Of a stretch of DNA of 64,000 nt, positions 14 to 40,074 are shown piece after piece. Under the pieces are notes generated by a model. The model ran no database searches, was not told the DNA's origin, and was given only the letters and a program-made list of their open reading frames with translations. Made by a program: the position numbers and the translations under genes. Numbering within the stretch: position 1 is the first letter of the stretch; each line of letters opens with the position of its first letter. Source of the stretch: Candidatus Blackburnbacteria bacterium (GTDB taxonomy: Bacteria > Patescibacteriota > Microgenomatia > UBA8517 > UBA10165). The stretch covers positions 293,241-357,240 of the forward strand of contig JACPEJ010000001.1 of NCBI GenBank assembly GCA_016183565.1. Direction: 5' to 3'.

Positions 14-50
14 TTTCCACATCGGGAGTGGAACAGGTTTGCACATCGGG
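14..50. repeat. 37-nt direct repeat, copy A (tttccacatcgggagtggaaCaggtttgcacatcggg); 36/37 identical to 1740..1776
   Basis: Compared the two stretches directly: one C/T mismatch. On the minus strand the repeat encodes MCKP[V/I]PLPMWK plus leader, i.e. the start of an ORF running off the left window edge. Confidence 0.8.
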
Positions 51-82
51 GAATTCTGCTTTTCATGCTACTGATTTGAACC

Positions 83-418
83 TTAGGACAATGTGAATAG
101 TCTACGAACTTTTTGTAAAATCACATTTTTAATCTTTGTAGTTAACTTCCCTGCGATATTCTTAATAATAGATGCATCGGCTGTGAATAATTTATCTGGT
201 CTGACAAAGCTTACAACTGGTAGACCTCCTTGGGTAAAATCAGATGGTTTAATACAGATTGCTGTTTTACTGGAGTAAGGCTTTGAAGTGATTTGACATA
301 AAATCAAGTTATCGAATTCAACTTGAGCTAAAACCAGAGCTGGGCGGATTTTCTTACCCTTTAAATTAGAAAAAGGGAAAGTAACCAAAACAACACTACC
401 TACTGTAAACTTGCCCAT
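83..418 (-). CDS. mazF: MazF/PemK-family type II toxin (mRNA interferase)
   Basis: 111 aa; PemK/MazF-like sequence (GSVVLVTFPFSNLKGKKIRPALVL...). 19-nt overlap with the upstream antitoxin ORF. Confidence 0.7.
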   Translation of the reverse strand: MGKFTVGSVVLVTFPFSNLKGKKIRPALVLAQVEFDNLILCQITSKPYSSKTAICIKPSDFTQGGLPVVSFVRPDKLFTADASIIKNIAGKLTTKIKNVILQKVRRLFTLS

Positions 419-639
419 GCTTTATCCTCTTCTGGTTTATTCCAATCAGCTCCAAGTGTTTTTTCTGCCAGTAAAAGAATATCGTTTGCAGGACTCTTTT
501 TTTTGGGAGCTGCAATAATTCTTATTTCACCCTTTTTTACCTGTATCTCAACATCATTACCCAAACCACTTTCATTAAGAAGCGGTTTTGGAATACGGAC
601 ACCACGGGAATTTCCTATTGGAATTAATGTAGTTATCAT
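400..639 (-). CDS. mazE: AbrB/MazE-family antitoxin (SpoVT/AbrB swapped-hairpin domain)
   Basis: 79 aa; IGNSRGVRIPKPLL motif typical of the AbrB/MazE fold. Translationally coupled to the mazF-like ORF. Confidence 0.65.
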   Translation of the reverse strand: MITTLIPIGNSRGVRIPKPLLNESGLGNDVEIQVKKGEIRIIAAPKKKSPANDILLLAEKTLGADWNKPEEDKAWASLQ

Positions 640-844
640 AAGTAATTACATTGTACATACACGTAAAAAGGATGTCAAGTTTTCCTGTTGACTATATGGG
701 AACTTATTATTCCTCTTTTTCTTACTGGCTGGACAAATGGAACGATTTTAGGTTAGCAAACTGGTTAGACATCCTGGAATTTCTAGAAATAACACTGAAA
801 TTTACCCAGCAACTTCTGGCAGTAGCTTAAAATGCTTACAACAA

Positions 845-1510
845 TTAAAGCAGACCGCCCCTTAATAGCCTAAACTCCTTTTTGGTATTCCAGACCTTCT
901 GCAACTCCTCAAAATTGTCATCTGGCTTCTGCATGAGCTTTGCAAGACTATCAATCTCTGCTAATTGCTCTTCAGGAAGTTTTTCAAACTTTCCAAAGTG
1001 AGTTATTTCTGGAGTGTGGAAGTAAATAACTTCATCGTTCATTAGACAGTGGAAGTCATAGAACAGTCCCCATGCGATAACAATTAAGCCACCGTTGCCT
1101 CCAGCATTCCAAAAATGCTGACCATTAACTTTGCCACTTCTCACTGAAAGCCAAGCATCAGCAGAAAAGTCAAAAGTGCCTTCAGGAATATCGTATAGGT
1201 CAAACTTGATATAATTTTCCAAGCTCCTATCAACATCAATCATCACCCAGCGTGAGTCCTGCCCATTCCAATACTGGTTAATCCAATGGTCATCGCTTTT
1301 ACCGCCAGGCGACCCTTCAACCTTAAAATATGGGGCAAAACCAGAACGGACACGAGCTGGAGTACCCTTTATTTTCAAAAGCGAAGCCATAAGGATTGAT
1401 GTGAATCTGCAAGTAAGAATAAGTTTATTATCTGCTGCTCTATCCAAAGTGCCCCTTGGGGTCTCTTCGATACAACTCGGCAAGCATTGCTGAGGCGGTG
1501 ACGAAAACAT
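845..1510 (-). CDS. Transglutaminase-like cysteine protease superfamily protein (catalytic part)
   Basis: TCRFTSILMASLLKIKGTPARVRSGF matches the transglutaminase-core Cys motif (C..[FA]..L....R..GIPAR.V.G[FY]), followed by DHW (His) and DVD (Asp). Confidence 0.6.
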   Translation of the reverse strand: MFSSPPQQCLPSCIEETPRGTLDRAADNKLILTCRFTSILMASLLKIKGTPARVRSGFAPYFKVEGSPGGKSDDHWINQYWNGQDSRWVMIDVDRSLENYIKFDLYDIPEGTFDFSADAWLSVRSGKVNGQHFWNAGGNGGLIVIAWGLFYDFHCLMNDEVIYFHTPEITHFGKFEKLPEEQLAEIDSLAKLMQKPDDNFEELQKVWNTKKEFRLLRGGLL

Positions 1511-1772
1511 CGTCCTCTGGTTGCCTATACCAGGGAATTTTGGTCATGTCGCCATATCTCAAATCCTTATTTGATCCCGTATTGCCATTTTTCAGAGTCA
1601 TCCTGTGAATGAGCTGCTTTCTTACCAATAAACCAATCTCTCTAACATCATCAGGTAAGGTTTTTTTGAGAACATCACCATATAATCCAGGGTTAGTATA
1701 CTGGCTAAATTGAAGATAAAAGTCTTGATTTTTTGAGAGTTTCCACATCGGGAGTGGAATAGGTTTGCACAT
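1440..1772 (-). CDS. N-terminal segment of the same transglutaminase-like gene, in a different frame (probable frameshifted gene)
   Basis: 110-aa ORF overlaps the downstream 221-aa ORF by 70 nt. 1772-845+1 = 928 is not a multiple of 3. Its start codon lies inside repeat copy B. Confidence 0.45.
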   Translation of the reverse strand: MCKPIPLPMWKLSKNQDFYLQFSQYTNPGLYGDVLKKTLPDDVREIGLLVRKQLIHRMTLKNGNTGSNKDLRYGDMTKIPWYRQPEDDVFVTASAMLAELYRRDPKGHFG

Positions 1773-1776
1773 CGGG
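1740..1776. repeat. 37-nt direct repeat, copy B; 7 nt from the 3' end of tRNA-Gln
   Basis: Direct comparison with 14..50. Confidence 0.8.
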
Positions 1777-1783
1777 AGGTGAG

Positions 1784-1854
1784 TTCCGGGACAGGGAGTT
1801 GAACCCCAATTTCCGCTTCCAGAGAGCGGCGTCCGACCATTAGACGATCCCGGA
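1784..1854 (-). tRNA. tRNA-Gln (anticodon CTG)
   Basis: Reverse complement folds as a cloverleaf. Acceptor TCCGGGA/TCCCGGA; D stem GTCT/GGAC; anticodon stem CCGCT/AGCGG with loop CTCTGGA (U33, CTG, G37); T loop TTCAACT; T stem has two G-U pairs. Plus strand is GC-rich in an AT-rich region. Confidence 0.7.
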
Positions 1855-31061: not shown

Positions 31062-31459
31062 AAGGCGGGGAGGTAGTAGCTCTTGTGGGAGATTTAGGGA
31101 GCGGTAAGACTACATTTGTTCAAGGTCTTGCTCGTGGTTTAGGAATAAAAGAGAGAATTTTGAGCCCCACTTTTATTTTGATGCGCCAGTACGATATAAA
31201 AACCAAAAATCAAAACAAAAATGCTTCCTTCGGAAGGGCAAAACTTAAAAATTTGTACCATATTGACTTGTACCGATTGGTTGGGAATATTGAGCAAGAA
31301 TATAGAAGTCTTGGGTTGGAAGAAATTGTAGGGGAGAAGGAAAATATAGTTGTGATTGAGTGGGCGGAGAAGGTGAGGGGGTTGCTGCCTGCTGATACGA
31401 TTTGGATTAGGTTTGGGATTGTGGGTGAGGATGGCAGAAAGATTATTATTAAGCGATAA
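30983..31459 (+). CDS. tsaE: tRNA t6A37 threonylcarbamoyl-adenosine biosynthesis ATPase TsaE (YjeE) with about 14-aa inserted segment
   Basis: Walker A GDLGSGKTTF, SPTFILM, LYHIDLYRL motifs. Inserted segment DIKTKNQNKNASFGRAKLKN is encoded by the repeat element 31197..31254. Confidence 0.8.
   Translation: MDRIMEVFTKSAQETFELGKNFAASLKGGEVVALVGDLGSGKTTFVQGLARGLGIKERILSPTFILMRQYDIKTKNQNKNASFGRAKLKNLYHIDLYRLVGNIEQEYRSLGLEEIVGEKENIVVIEWAEKVRGLLPADTIWIRFGIVGEDGRKIIIKR
31197..31254. repeat. Repeat element copy 1: 22-nt hairpin core TGCTTCCTTCGGAAGGGCAAAA flanked by degenerate CAAAA(A)T heptamers, inside tsaE
   Basis: Core 31222..31243 is identical to 38519..38540. Stem CTTCC/GGAAG. Confidence 0.7.
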
Positions 31460-37771: not shown

Positions 37772-38515
37772 ATGGCTCAGAAACTTACGTTGAGTGTTAT
37801 TTTGCCTGTTTATAATGAGGAGAAGGATGTACCTAGAAATGTTCCTATTCTCTATAAGTATCTGAAAGAGAATTTTACTCAATATTCTTGGGAACTTATC
37901 ATTGCTGATAATGGTCCTTCTAAAGATAGAACTCCGGAAATCTCGAAAGAACTAACTAAGAACTATAGGAGTTTGTTTTATATTTGTATTCCACGGCCAG
38001 GGCGTGGGGGTGCGTTAAAAGAAGTTTGGCAAAAGCGAAAAAGTGACTACCTTTGCTATATGGATGTTGATTTGTCTTCAGATCTTTCCTTTTTGTCTCA
38101 ACTTATTTCCTTTCTAGAGAATGGTGCTGATATTGCTATCGGTTCACGTCTTAAGAGGGGGGCTAAGGTGTATGGTCGGACACTCTTACGTGAGATAATG
38201 TCCAGAGGCTATAATATCTTGATCCGAACCTTCTTTTGGACAAGCTTCTGCGATGCTCAGTGTGGATTCAAAGCGATTAGAAAAGAAGCAGCGATGAAGC
38301 TTTTACCGTATGTGGAGGATAAAGGTTGGTTTTTTGATTCAGAACTTTTGATAACTGGCGAGAAAGCGGGGTTTAAAATTAAAGAAGTTCCTATAGTTTG
38401 GCGTGATGATCCTGCTTCAACTGTTAAGGTTGCAAAAACTGCTTGGGGGGATATTAAGGGACTAGCAAGGCTTTTTATCACCAGGCCATGGAAAAAAATT
38501 CAAAATTCAAAATAA
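37772..38515 (+). CDS. GT2 glycosyltransferase (DPM/DPG-synthase-like); last 7 codons and stop lie in heptamer repeats
   Basis: ILPVYNEEKD...IIADNGPSKD...DVDLS motifs. C-terminus ...PWKKIQNSK* is encoded by AAAATTC repeats. Confidence 0.85.
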   Translation: MAQKLTLSVILPVYNEEKDVPRNVPILYKYLKENFTQYSWELIIADNGPSKDRTPEISKELTKNYRSLFYICIPRPGRGGALKEVWQKRKSDYLCYMDVDLSSDLSFLSQLISFLENGADIAIGSRLKRGAKVYGRTLLREIMSRGYNILIRTFFWTSFCDAQCGFKAIRKEAAMKLLPYVEDKGWFFDSELLITGEKAGFKIKEVPIVWRDDPASTVKVAKTAWGDIKGLARLFITRPWKKIQNSK

Positions 38516-40074
38516 AATTGCTTCCTTCGGAAGGGCAAAATTCAAAATTAAAATTCAAAATTCAAAATTTTCAGAAGTGGATGTCAACAAACAGATATGA
38601 ATTTGCTCTTCTAGTTTTTATCCTCATTCTGGCCACCCTTTTTAGACTTTGGAGAATAGATGAGTACTTGCCATTTTTAGGTGACGAGGGGCGAGACGTA
38701 AGGGTAGTAAGACGTTTTGTGACGGATTTTGATTTGATGTTTATAGGGCCGAGAACTTCGATTGGTGATATGTACCTTGGCCCCTTGTTTTACTATCTTA
38801 TTGCCCCTGGGCTTTTGTTTGCTAATTTCTCACCAGCTGGCCCAGCTACCACTGTAGCACTTTTTGGTGTTGCAACGGTTTTTTTGATTTGGCGGGTTGC
38901 TCGCGAATGGTTTGGTAGGGAAGCTGCAATTATTTCATCTTTTCTTTTTGCGATTTCTCCCTTGGTGGTAAATCTATCGAAGCATTCCTGGAATCCGAAC
39001 ATCATGCCCTTTTTTGCTCTTTTGTCAGTTTATAGTATTTGGAGGGTGTGGAGTAAAGGAGAGTATCTGTGGTTTTTAGTACTTGGAGGAGCGTACGCTT
39101 TTGTTCTTCAGTCTCACTATCTGGGTTTGCTTCTGGGACCTGTGTTAGGGCTGTCGGGGTTGTTAGGGTGGTTGGGAGCAAGAAGGGCACGCACAACAAA
39201 AAGTTTTCTTGTTTTCTTGTTTTCAGGTTCCTTAGTTTTTATCGTTTTAATGTCCCCTTTGTTTATTTTTGATTCCAAGCATGGTTGGCATAATACGCAG
39301 GCTATAGCCACTTTTTTTACCAAGAGACAAGAAACTGTTTCTGTCAAGCCGTGGAATGCTGTACCTCTAACATGGCCTATTTGGAAAGATAAGGTTGTTA
39401 ATGATCTTTTGACAGCTGGTAATCAAAACCTGGCTTTATATGTAGCGTTAGGTTTGTTGCTTGCTTGTCTTTGTGTGTTTCTCGAAAGCAGGAGAAAGCT
39501 TTCCTCTCTTGTACCTTTTGGTCTGACTGTTTTTTGGATATTAGTGGGTCTTTTGGGTTTGGGGTCTCTTAAACAAAATGTTTATAGCCATTATTTTGGA
39601 TTTATGTTTCCGGCGGTATTTCTTTTGATTGGGGCTATTACCGGGTTTTTTTGGAAAGGCAGGACGAGATGGGTGGTTGTACTTGCTATAGCTGTGTTGA
39701 TAACGATCAACTTACAAAAAAATCCCCTTTTCCTGCCTCCCCAGAGGCAGATGCAGAGAGTTCAAGAAATTGATAAAAAAATTCTCAAAGAAGCGGATAG
39801 CGAGCCCTTTAATTTTGCTTTAATTGCTAAGAGAAATTATGAGGAAGGTTATCTTTATTTCTTTGAATTATGGAATTCGCCGGTTCGGGAAATCAACGCT
39901 CAGAATACTCGTGATACTTTAACTGAGCAACTTTTTGTTGTTTGCGAAGACCCTGTTTGTGAGCCGATTAATAATGCTAAAGCTGAAATTGCGAATTTTG
40001 GTTGGGCGAAAATAGAAAGTGAAGAGCAAATTGGGGGTGTAAAATTGTACAAACTAGTTCACACAAAACAATGA
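38488..40074 (+). CDS. GT-C glycosyltransferase, GT39/ArnT-like
   Basis: FLGDEGRD...IGP.TSIGD...GPLFYYLIAPG motif and 11+ TMs. The ATG at 38488 adds a Lys-rich 31-aa leader from the repeat element; the native start may be the Met at ~38581 (MSTNRYEF...). Confidence 0.75.
   Translation: MEKNSKFKIKLLPSEGQNSKLKFKIQNFQKWMSTNRYEFALLVFILILATLFRLWRIDEYLPFLGDEGRDVRVVRRFVTDFDLMFIGPRTSIGDMYLGPLFYYLIAPGLLFANFSPAGPATTVALFGVATVFLIWRVAREWFGREAAIISSFLFAISPLVVNLSKHSWNPNIMPFFALLSVYSIWRVWSKGEYLWFLVLGGAYAFVLQSHYLGLLLGPVLGLSGLLGWLGARRARTTKSFLVFLFSGSLVFIVLMSPLFIFDSKHGWHNTQAIATFFTKRQETVSVKPWNAVPLTWPIWKDKVVNDLLTAGNQNLALYVALGLLLACLCVFLESRRKLSSLVPFGLTVFWILVGLLGLGSLKQNVYSHYFGFMFPAVFLLIGAITGFFWKGRTRWVVVLAIAVLITINLQKNPLFLPPQRQMQRVQEIDKKILKEADSEPFNFALIAKRNYEEGYLYFFELWNSPVREINAQNTRDTLTEQLFVVCEDPVCEPINNAKAEIANFGWAKIESEEQIGGVKLYKLVHTKQ
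38494..38572. repeat. Repeat element copy 2: AAAATTC-type heptamer repeats on both sides of the hairpin core TGCTTCCTTCGGAAGGGCAAAA (38519..38540)
   Basis: Seen in sequence. Spans the stop of GT2 37772..38515 and the first ~28 codons of ORF 38488..40074. Confidence 0.75.

What the first reader, a model, noticed from the sequence alone, without database searches (positions are those of the whole stretch)
14..1854. 37-nt direct repeat brackets a mazEF plus transglutaminase cassette next to tRNA-Gln
tttccacatcgggagtggaa[C/T]aggtttgcacatcggg occurs at 14..50 and 1740..1776 (36/37 identical). The second copy ends 7 nt from the 3' end of tRNA-Gln(CTG). The 1.7 kb between the copies carries a MazE/MazF pair and a (frameshifted) transglutaminase-like gene. 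tRNA-adjacent direct repeats are the hallmark of integrated elements, but no integrase lies between them. Alternatively each repeat is the shared leader and first 11 codons (MCKP[V/I]PLPMWK) of two adjacent same-strand genes whose sequences diverge immediately afterwards. That would point to a conserved recombination or regulatory site (cassette-like organisation) rather than ordinary paralogy.
Basis: seen in the sequence. Interest (0 to 1): 0.5.

Follow-up and report, generated by a model that had tools for sequence, protein, structure and literature searches.

The report
Transposase-linked hairpin repeat, two copies
The 37-base repeat is real, but it is neither an integration scar nor a shared gene start: it is a short hairpin-forming DNA element of a kind that, in related uncultured bacteria, flanks the gene of a single-strand (Y1/HUH) transposase and also occurs alone between genes.

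Summary
A 37-mer lies at 14..50 and 1740..1776 (36/37 identical, none expected by chance, no third copy in 64 kb). It flanks MazEF plus a decayed transglutaminase-like gene, 6 nt past the 3' end of tRNA-Gln(CTG).

The coding reading is refuted:
- Homologues of the transglutaminase-like protein are 299 aa and start downstream of the repeat.
- A second allele of the same strain has a stop codon and the true ATG after the repeat.
- No protein in 5.8 billion starts like the left-hand 'peptide'.

The att reading is not supported. There is no integrase, and the repeat does not overlap the tRNA. The same motif occurs at unrelated loci.

In other groundwater contigs this motif is a TCCCGATGTG box, a spacer of about 8-10 nt, and the hairpin TTCCAC-TCCCGAT-GTGGAA. 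There it flanks genes for 216-224 aa Y1 (IS200-like, RAYT-like) transposases. One case is 36/37 identical to the window's repeat. The motif also occurs alone, for example between mraY and ftsW.

I conclude it is a REP-like, or IS200/IS605-end-like, element in Microgenomates (source: a Candidatus Blackburnbacteria MAG). It is atypical: no GTAG head, a duplicated box, and only two copies in the 64 kb examined.

It remains open whether the pair bounds a mobilisable cassette. The sequence left of the window could not be reached.

The parts
1740..1776 (-). REP-like element, copy 2. On the - strand it reads CCCGATGTGCAAACCTATTCCACTCCCGATGTGGAAA. Box 1 is at 1768..1777. The hairpin has arms 1741..1746 and 1754..1759 and loop 1747..1753. 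It lies 6 nt 3' of tRNA-Gln and just upstream of the transglutaminase-like pseudogene.
   Evidence: Covariance model R1 scores it at 66 bits. It is identical in Logan contigs L001-L007.
14..50 (-). REP-like element, copy 1, with one A-to-G difference in the spacer. Hairpin 15..33; box 1 at 42..50. It lies 32 nt 3' of the mazF stop codon. Only 13 nt of sequence are available to its left.
   Evidence: R1 scores it at 63 bits. It is seen only in the source MAG, because the independent contigs end at 403.
1783..1854 (-). tRNA-Gln(CTG)
   Evidence: ARAGORN; Rfam RF00005, 53 bits.
845..1735 (-). Transglutaminase-like pseudogene of a 299-aa family with a Cys-His-Asp core. In the window allele a 15-nt deletion between 1735 and 1736 removed the start codon and an upstream TAG. 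A 2-nt deletion between 1450 and 1451 shifts the frame.
   Evidence: The alignment with allele L003 is 100% identical apart from three indels.
680..710 (-). 'R' site, AATAAGTTCCCATATAGTCAAC... This second conserved short sequence sits at the upstream border of the MazEF module.
   Evidence: Model R2 gives a single hit in the window, 28 bits. The same site flanks MazEF in L096 and follows mazF and the next gene in L097.
650..678 (-). Promoter-like site of mazEF: TTGACA, 17 nt, TACAAT (11 of 12 consensus positions). It is conserved in the homologous modules.
400..639 (-). mazE (AbrB/MazE-type antitoxin, 79 aa)
   Evidence: PF04014.
83..418 (-). mazF (PemK/MazF toxin, 111 aa). It is identical to NCBI MBI2268128.1 from a Candidatus Blackburnbacteria MAG.
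   Evidence: PF02452.
51..82 (-). 3' tail of the MazEF module. It is homologous to the tails in L096 and L097 up to ...TTCC. At that point those loci continue with R, whereas the window continues with copy 1.

Best explanation
What it is. The two 37-mers are copies of a short non-coding DNA element associated with a Y1 (HUH) single-strand transposase. This is the class that includes REP sequences with their RAYT/TnpA-REP genes and the subterminal hairpins of IS200/IS605 elements.

Anatomy. On the - strand the element consists of:
- a box, (T/C)CCCGATGTG;
- an 8-10 nt spacer;
- a 6-bp hairpin, TTCCAC-TCCCGAT-GTGGAA, whose loop and 3' arm repeat the box.

How it most likely works (inferred from the family). 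The cognate transposase is a 216-225 aa protein with the motifs MPNHFHLL (HUH) and RYIHLNP (Tyr). It is encoded outside this window. It would bind the folded hairpin on one DNA strand, then cut and rejoin next to it. That would seed copies just past the 3' ends of genes, here tRNA-Gln and mazF.

The local genes. 'MCKP(V/I)PLPMWK' is an accidental open frame through the element. In this allele a 15-nt deletion fused it to the dying transglutaminase-like gene. MazEF is a separate portable module with its own promoter and its own border sequence (R). The region left of tRNA-Gln is an accessory patch where such pieces collect.

Shown versus inferred.
- Shown: the repeat itself, its non-coding nature, and family membership by sequence and architecture.
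- Shown: the association with Y1 transposase genes in relatives, the solitary intergenic copies elsewhere, and the modular nature of MazEF.
- Inferred: that a transposase acts on these two copies, and that they arrived independently rather than as the two ends of one unit.
For: - A relaxed two-box search of JGI metagenomes returned 73 loci. Seven of them are low-GC contigs that look like candidate-phyla-radiation (CPR) bacteria and carry the full architecture, which the pattern did not require.
- L128/L175 carries TCCCGATGTGCAAACCTATTCCA[T]TCCCGATGTGGAAA, 36/37 identical to copy 2. The motif lies on both sides of a 224-aa gene that hits PF01797 Y1_Tnp (E 4e-10). That gene's best NCBIfam hit is REP_Tyr_transpos.
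- L159/L135 has a 47%-identical homologue with the motif on both sides, 713 nt apart.
- More distant homologues in two Amesbacteria (L042, L036) sit at the same place after lon. They are flanked by their own hairpins, which share the apex: CAC-ACCGGGA-GTG in L042 and CAC-CTCGGGG-GTG in L036.
- The HUH and Tyr motifs are invariant in the four proteins.
- Solitary copies occur between mraY and ftsW (L147, L171) and between two other genes (L141).
- The hairpin pairs in 96% of cells, with two compensatory pairs. Slid controls give 28-67%.
- The element is non-coding here.
- Published descriptions of REPtrons and of REPs clustering near tnpA: PMC2817692, PMC6006769, PMC8266576.
Against: - Only two copies lie in 64 kb, and both are in one 1.8-kb accessory patch. 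Classical REPs number tens to hundreds per genome.
- No Y1 transposase gene lies in the window, and the rest of the 686-kb contig could not be read.
- There is no conserved GT[AG]G head.
- The transposases score below NCBIfam's RAYT cut-off (56 and 47 bits against 80).
- The hairpin is weak (-7.3 kcal/mol, z about -2).
- One family member (L116) lies in frame inside a recO ORF.
- Copy 1 could lie inside a + strand gene entering from the left.
- Two copies in direct orientation exactly bracketing accessory genes is also what the two ends of one mobile unit would look like.
Confidence: 0.7

Rival explanations
1. The two same-orientation copies are the working left and right ends of one non-autonomous IS200/IS605-like unit. 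That unit carries the transglutaminase-like gene and MazEF as cargo, and a Y1 transposase moved it in trans to the tRNA-Gln flank.
For: - In L159 and L042 the transposase gene is flanked by two copies in direct orientation, 690-720 nt apart. That is the geometry of IS200/IS605 ends.
- The window pair is also direct and has sharp borders.
- Neither cargo gene occurs in the syntenic region of any of the 80 lon-anchored relatives.
Against: - The transglutaminase-like gene and MazEF are not a recurrent pair. Each occurs alone in other contexts.
- MazEF has its own borders (R).
- In L175 the flanking copies are inverted.
- Solitary copies show that the 37-45 nt unit spreads on its own.
- No empty site or second copy of the 1.7-kb unit is known.
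Confidence: 0.12
2. One resident copy next to tRNA-Gln served as a patch of homology. A circular or incoming DNA carrying the transglutaminase-like gene, MazEF and one copy recombined with it. The recombination could have been RecA-dependent or a transposase strand transfer. It left the insert flanked by direct repeats.
For: - The repeats are 36/37 identical against totally unrelated flanks.
- Homology of the MazEF module ends exactly where copy 1 begins, at the point where L096 and L097 carry the R site instead.
- The region is variable among relatives.
Against: 37 nt is near the lower limit for homologous recombination. No donor or empty site has been seen. This reading cannot be told apart from independent insertion with the data at hand.
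Confidence: 0.1
3. Classical integrative islet: the 37-mers are attL and attR made by a tyrosine integrase acting at the tRNA-Gln flank. The integrase has since been lost, or lies left of the window.
For: - The repeats are direct and adjacent to a tRNA.
- L060, a Blackburnbacteria relative, has a large serine recombinase gene overlapping tRNA-Gln.
- In L097 an 87%-identical MazF lies in a 1.3-kb integrase-less islet. That islet is bounded by repeats of the tRNA-Gln(TTG) 3' end.
Against: - The repeat does not include any tRNA sequence.
- There is no integrase between the copies or within 12 kb to the right.
- The same sequence family flanks Y1 transposase genes and lies between mraY and ftsW elsewhere.
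- Serine recombinases do not produce 37-nt direct repeats (established knowledge).
Confidence: 0.06
4. The repeat is the shared leader and first 11 codons of two adjacent genes.
For: An ATG lies in the element, and an open frame, MCKP(V/I)PLPMWK, continues into the 110-aa fragment. NCBI annotation calls that fragment from this ATG.
Against: - 120 listed homologues are about 299 aa. They cover 93-97% of the query, and the 12 inspected begin MxxKxxxxYLQFSQYT.
- Allele L003 reads ...MWKL-stop and then ATG AAC ACA AAA.
- No protein among 5.8 billion shares three 5-residue words with MCKPVPLPMWKSQGN, although all four proteins of the source MAG that were looked up are in that database.
Confidence: 0.01

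Closest known systems
REP/BIME sequences with their RAYT (TnpA-REP) genes, known as 'REPtrons', in E. coli, Pseudomonas, Stenotrophomonas and Marinomonas (PMC2817692, PMC3116915, PMC6006769, PMC8266576)
   Same: - A short hairpin-forming repeat, mostly between genes and just past gene ends.
- It flanks a Y1/HUH transposase gene longer than an IS200 TnpA. The flanks are inverted in L175.
- Repeat and transposase vary together between lineages.
- The transposase gene sits at a conserved chromosomal place in two Amesbacteria.
- Sub-units are amplified in tandem next to the gene.
   Different: - No GT[AG]G head.
- Instead there is a 10-nt box identical to the loop plus the 3' arm.
- The stem is only 6 bp.
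- Only 2 copies in 64 kb.
- In L159 and L042 the copies flank the gene in direct orientation.
- The proteins fall below NCBIfam's RAYT cut-off.
- The hosts are Patescibacteria (Microgenomates). I found no paper in the searched library that describes REP/RAYT systems there.
IS200/IS605 family insertion sequences (IS608, ISDra2) and their transposase-less derivatives
   Same: - A Y1_Tnp domain (PF01797, above threshold).
- Weak direct similarity to ISDra2 TnpA around the HUH motif.
- Similar hairpins on the same strand at both sides of the gene in L159 and L042.
- Short transposase-less copies occur elsewhere.
   Different: - The transposase is 216-225 aa, with a conserved C-terminal extension.
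- There is no tnpB.
- No evidence of multiple identical full copies.
- The flanks are inverted in L175.
- No conserved target tetranucleotide is evident beside the copies.
tRNA-linked genomic islets bounded by att direct repeats
   Same: Direct repeats bracket accessory genes, including a toxin-antitoxin pair, beside a tRNA gene at a break in synteny.
   Different: The repeat excludes the tRNA, no integrase is present, and the repeat family is dispersed in unrelated contexts.
Integron gene cassettes with attC sites
   Same: Small, often promoterless or toxin-antitoxin cassettes, each followed by a short conserved site. The R sites around MazEF and the next gene in L097 look superficially like this.
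   Different: The 37-mer contains no GTTRRRY-type core site (read directly from the sequence). No integron integrase or attI was seen in the 12 kb to the right. R has no clear palindrome.

Membership tests
REP / RAYT (REPtron) systems | Short (about 20-65 nt) imperfect palindrome able to form a stem-loop | tested here: met
   A 6-bp stem and 7-nt loop, -7.3 kcal/mol. Across 9 family members 96% of cells pair and 2 pairs show compensatory change.
REP / RAYT (REPtron) systems | Copies flank a Y1 (HUH plus Tyr) transposase gene | tested here: met
   Met in relatives: L128/L175, L159/L135, L042 and L036. Not met in the window itself, which has no Y1_Tnp homologue in 64 kb.
REP / RAYT (REPtron) systems | Conserved GT[AG]G tetranucleotide at the 5' foot of the palindrome | tested here: not met
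   The four bases 5' of the stem vary (CCTA, CCTG, TCGC, TCAT, GCTA, ACAA). The invariant parts are the TCCCGATGTG box and the loop.
REP / RAYT (REPtron) systems | Many dispersed extragenic copies per genome | tested here: inconclusive
   Two copies in 64 kb, both within 1.8 kb. Solitary intergenic copies exist in other genomes (L141, L147, L171). One copy lies inside a recO ORF (L116).
REP / RAYT (REPtron) systems | Transposase reaches the curated family score (NCBIfam NF047646 REP_Tyr_transpos, cut-off 80 bits) | tested here: not met
   56 and 47 bits. It is the best and only NCBIfam hit.
REP / RAYT (REPtron) systems | Transposase gene is single-copy and vertically inherited | tested here: inconclusive
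   The homologues in two Amesbacteria species both sit directly after lon, each with its own hairpins. No whole genome was available to count copies.
IS200/IS605 insertion sequences | Y1_Tnp domain transposase | tested here: met
   PF01797, 43 and 40 bits against a cut-off of 23.
IS200/IS605 insertion sequences | Compact TnpA (about 130-155 aa), often with tnpB, and several identical copies per genome | tested here: not met
   The proteins are 216-225 aa with a conserved C-terminal part, and there is no neighbouring tnpB. Copy number was not testable.
IS200/IS605 insertion sequences | Similar subterminal hairpins on the same strand at both ends | tested here: inconclusive
   Direct in L159 and L042, inverted in L175.
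tRNA-targeting integrative element (attL/attR) | Integrase gene inside or beside the bracketed segment | tested here: not met
   None between the copies and none within about 12 kb to the right. The left side is unknown.
tRNA-targeting integrative element (attL/attR) | The direct repeat contains the 3' end of the tRNA | tested here: not met
   The repeat starts 6 nt after the tRNA.
tRNA-targeting integrative element (attL/attR) | Empty site in relatives | not testable with these tools
   The closest available relatives (lon 76-77% identical) have different content and no 37-mer. The source genome is absent from the DNA collections.
Protein-coding leader / paralogous N-termini | The repeat is translated as the start of both genes | tested here: not met

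The most novel reading that the evidence does not exclude
Small accessory cassettes in Microgenomates are shuffled by a single-strand (Y1) transposase system. Under this reading the two same-orientation 37-mers are working ends that make the 1.7-kb segment (transglutaminase-like gene plus MazEF) mobilisable. They would act together with the R sites that border MazEF and its neighbour genes. The result would be an integron-like cassette patch next to tRNA-Gln genes that works without any integrase.
Probability: 0.1. Interest if true: 0.65.

Novelty: new variant of a known kind. Interest (0 to 1): 0.38.

Why it matters
REP-like elements and their domesticated Y1 transposases are best known from Proteobacteria. 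In the paper library I searched, nothing describes them in the tiny, repeat-poor genomes of Patescibacteria (CPR).

This family has an unusual design: the box repeats the loop and the 3' arm, and there is no GTAG head. It offers a compact test case for how Y1 transposases choose their sites.

On the practical side, the finding explains three things: a spurious N-terminal extension in the public annotation, a pseudogene, and a 'cassette' look that could be mistaken for an integrated element.

Tried and rejected
Searches that led nowhere:
- Exact 35-mer scans of genome contigs, metagenome contigs and viral contigs gave 0 hits. The 20-nt hairpin in viral contigs also gave 0.
- The relaxed motif in viral contigs gave one hit (L095). 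It is a coding Thr/Ser/Gly repeat and was dismissed.
- Most of the 73 metagenome hits are tandem or coding repeats. Only 7 share the architecture.
- Attempts to reach the DNA left of the window all failed. MazF and P0121 are not on record as genes. Every contig carrying MazE, the 132-aa protein or Lon stops at window position 403.
A tripled peptide found nothing.
- Rfam found only the two tRNAs at E up to 1.
- The repeat shows no promoter-like or terminator-like signal. The only strong promoter-like site belongs to mazEF.

Ideas considered and rejected:
- Tandem duplication of the 1.7-kb unit. The 13 nt left of copy 1 do not match the sequence after copy 2, and the window holds no second transglutaminase-like gene or MazEF.
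- Assembly artefact at a contig end. The locus tags put the window about 320 genes into a 686-kb contig. Copy 1 nonetheless lacks independent confirmation.
- Covariance models of the motif (R1) and of R (R2) found no convincing further copies in about 1 Mb of lon-anchored Microgenomates loci. The best extra R1 hit was a 22-bit palindrome in L025.
Full report
OBSERVATION

The 37-mer TTTCCACATCGGGAGTGGAA[C/T]AGGTTTGCACATCGGG lies at 14..50 and 1740..1776 (36/37 identical). Shuffled sequence gives no match. No third copy exists in the 64-kb window, whether allowing 3 mismatches, by BLAST, or with a covariance model. The borders are sharp and the flanks on both sides are unrelated.

All features lie on the - strand, in this order:
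- tRNA-Gln(CTG), 1854..1783;
- 6 nt;
- copy 2;
- a transglutaminase-like gene in two frames (1772..1440 and 1510..845);
- mazE, 639..400;
- mazF, 418..83 (Pfam);
- 32 nt;
- copy 1;
- 13 nt;
- the window edge.

No integrase lies between the copies.

SOURCE AND REACH

MazF is identical to NCBI MBI2268128.1 (HYU80_01615) from a Candidatus Blackburnbacteria MAG, on a 686,250-bp contig. The window is therefore not at a contig end.

The record's DNA is absent from every collection I could search. Independent Logan assemblies of the same strain cover the tRNA, copy 2, the pseudogene and mazE. All of them stop at window position 403. Copy 1 and whatever lies to its left therefore rest on the MAG alone. 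The left flank stayed out of reach.

THE REPEAT IS NOT CODING

- The transglutaminase-like protein belongs to a large family. 966 proteins match at E <= 0.001, and the top hits are 62-88% identical.
- The 120 listed homologues are about 299 aa and cover 93-97% of the query. The 12 I inspected begin MxxKxxxxYLQFSQYT. The 12 residues MCKPIPLPMWKL are extra.
- A second allele of the same strain (L003, run SRR4343435) is 100% identical over 540 nt except for three indels.
- That allele keeps 15 nt after the repeat, AGTGAATTATGAACA. These give ...MWKL-TAG and then ATG AAC ACA AAA, so MNTKNQDF. This is the N-terminus of homologue P0002.
- It also keeps the 2 nt whose loss shifts the frame in the window. 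It has its own 1-nt deletion elsewhere.

So the window allele lost the real start codon and became fused, by accident, to an ATG inside the repeat. Both alleles are pseudogenes with different lesions.

For copy 1, no protein among 5.8 billion shares even three 5-residue words with MCKPVPLPMWKSQGN. All four proteins of this MAG that I looked up are in that database.

WHAT THE REPEAT IS

On the - strand it reads CCCGATGTG-CAAACCTR-TTCCAC-TCCCGAT-GTGGAA-A. That is a 10-nt box, a spacer, and a 6-bp hairpin whose loop and 3' arm repeat the box.

A relaxed search for two boxes 12-16 nt apart in JGI metagenomes gave 73 loci. Most are unrelated tandem or coding repeats. Seven low-GC contigs that look like candidate-phyla-radiation (CPR) bacteria show the whole architecture, including the complementary 5' arm, which the pattern did not ask for. 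What they carry:
- L128, and its longer twin L175 from a groundwater metagenome, carry the sequence at 36/37 identity. There are one and a half tandem copies upstream and one copy downstream, in inverted orientation. They flank a 224-aa gene that hits Pfam Y1_Tnp (IS200-like transposase). Its best NCBIfam hit is the REP-associated tyrosine transposase model, below cut-off.
- L159/L135 carries a 47%-identical homologue with the motif on both sides in direct orientation.
- L042 and L036 carry 44-46%-identical homologues from two Amesbacteria. Both sit directly after lon. Their own hairpins flank them and keep the same apex: CAC-ACCGGGA-GTG in L042 and CAC-CTCGGGG-GTG in L036. In L042 a 12-bp palindrome lies on both sides.
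- The four proteins share the invariant motifs MPNHFHLL (HUH) and SRYIHLNP.
- Solitary copies lie between mraY and ftsW (L147, L171) and between two other genes (L141, which also has an inverted box). One copy lies in frame inside a recO ORF (L116).
- Across nine copies the stem pairs in 96% of cells and shows two compensatory pairs. Slid controls give 28-67%.

This is the signature of the REP/RAYT and IS200/IS605 world. Such elements are hairpin repeats that flank a Y1 transposase gene and vary with it. They also occur as transposase-less copies in intergenic DNA (PMC2817692, PMC6006769, PMC8266576).

HOW IT DEPARTS FROM THE CLASSICAL KINDS

- There is no GT[AG]G head.
- The stem is short and weak.
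- Only two copies lie in 64 kb, and none in about 1 Mb of lon-anchored Microgenomates loci.
- No Y1 transposase gene lies in the window.
- The proteins are longer than an IS200 TnpA and have no tnpB partner, yet fall below NCBIfam's RAYT cut-off.
- Orientation relative to the gene varies: direct in L159 and L042, inverted in L175.

I therefore say it works like a REP or an IS200/IS605 end. I do not file it as a canonical member of either.

THE NEIGHBOURHOOD

MazEF is a portable module:
- Window positions about 55..679, including the promoter-like site TTGACA-17-TACAAT at 678..650, are 83% identical in DNA to modules in unrelated contexts, L096 and L097-L101.
- A second short conserved sequence, R (GTTCC[AC]A[CT]ATAGTCAAC...), lies on both sides of MazEF in L096. 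In L097 it follows mazF and the next gene.
- R occurs once in the window, at 680..710, just upstream of the mazEF promoter. It also occurs once in the variable region of another Blackburnbacteria (L011).
- Downstream of mazF the module homology runs to ...TTCC. There L096 and L097 continue with R, and the window continues with copy 1.

Neither the transglutaminase-like gene nor this MazEF occurs in the syntenic region of any of the 80 lon-anchored relatives.

The tRNA-Gln flank is variable in other ways too:
- In L060, a large serine recombinase gene overlaps tRNA-Gln.
- In L011 there is no tRNA-Gln at all.
- In L097, the MazEF homologue lies in a 1.3-kb integrase-less islet downstream of tRNA-Gln(TTG). 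Repeats of the tRNA 3' end bound that islet.

So the region left of tRNA-Gln is an accessory patch.

INTERPRETATION

Best-supported reading (0.7). The 37-mers are two copies of a Y1-transposase-associated hairpin element. Each sits just past a gene end. The coding appearance is an accident, and the cognate transposase is encoded elsewhere. It may lie immediately to the left, because such repeats can cluster near their gene (PMC8266576).

It remains open whether the pair is more than two solitary copies:
- They could be the two ends of a cargo-carrying unit (0.12).
- They could be the product of recombination at a resident copy (0.10).
- A classical att site is unlikely (0.06).
- The shared-leader idea is refuted.

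WHAT WOULD DECIDE IT

- The full source genome: copy count, presence of a Y1_Tnp gene, and the gene to the left.
- Read mapping for empty-site or circle junctions.
- Comparison of strains.
- Cleavage assays with the L175-type transposase.

VERDICT

A real repeat with a mundane but instructive identity. It is a new variant of a known kind of mobile element, in a lineage where I found no such system described in the searched literature. Interest is moderate.

Noticed in passing
window 680-710 (- strand); L096 1-32 and 664-695; L097 2184-2216 and 2677-2709; L011 1752-1783: A second conserved short sequence, 'R' (AATA[AG]GTTCC[AC]A[CT]ATAGTCAAC[CT]AGTGCCAGC). It marks the borders of the MazEF module and of a neighbouring 127-aa gene in different genomes. 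It has no clear palindrome, and its function is unknown. It looks like a cassette-border site.
   Followed up: partly
L097 1050-2965: An 87%-identical MazF homologue lies in a 1.3-kb integrase-less islet downstream of tRNA-Gln(TTG) at 1385-1456. A second tRNA-like copy (about 1470-1556) carries a 22-nt hairpin insert in the D-arm. A GIY-YIG gene follows a third tRNA-like 5' fragment. The tRNA 3' end (AATCCTAGTCCCGCAGC) is repeated at 2854-2870.
   Followed up: partly
L060 6973-8540: In a related Blackburnbacteria genome, a 518-aa large serine recombinase (Resolvase, Recombinase and Zn_ribbon_recom domains) reads into and overlaps tRNA-Gln(CTG). This suggests an element integrated at that tRNA.
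   Followed up: partly
L091 1671-3996 (also L092, L093): A transglutaminase-like homologue is cut off after ...PWYRQPED. It is followed by a 174-aa gene and a 492-aa serine recombinase, so a recombinase element seems to have inserted into this gene.
   Followed up: no
window 845-1772; L003; L094 10-762: The 299-aa transglutaminase-like gene is repeatedly inactivated. Two alleles of one strain carry different indels and no substitutions, and a homologue in L094 has an in-frame stop. This suggests recent loss of selection on the gene.
   Followed up: partly
L116 704-748: One copy of the hairpin element lies in frame (15 codons, KNPDVQLQFHSRCGS) inside a recO ORF, right after the end of the RecO_C Pfam match.
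   Followed up: partly
window 403 (start of L001 and L005; end of L002, L006 and L007): All independent Logan contigs of this strain, from five runs, break at the same base, at the mazE stop and mazF start. No contig with this mazF is on record. The cause could be k-mers shared with other MazEF loci or population variation.
   Followed up: no
window 31198-31250 and 38495-38547: A 53-nt repeat, 87% identical, with a central GCTTCCTTCGGAAGGGC hairpin in A-rich flanks. It may be a two-way terminator.
   Followed up: no
L025 3937-3999: A palindromic element (CCTTATGTG...CCCACACCCGGTGTGTG...CACATAAGG) scores weakly with the motif model (22 bits). It may be a distant relative of the family.
   Followed up: no
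L128 346-420 and 1119-1205 (same locus as L175): Sub-units of the element are amplified in tandem next to the transposase gene: an 11-nt unit GTGGAAACCTT three times, and a 32-nt unit twice.
   Followed up: no
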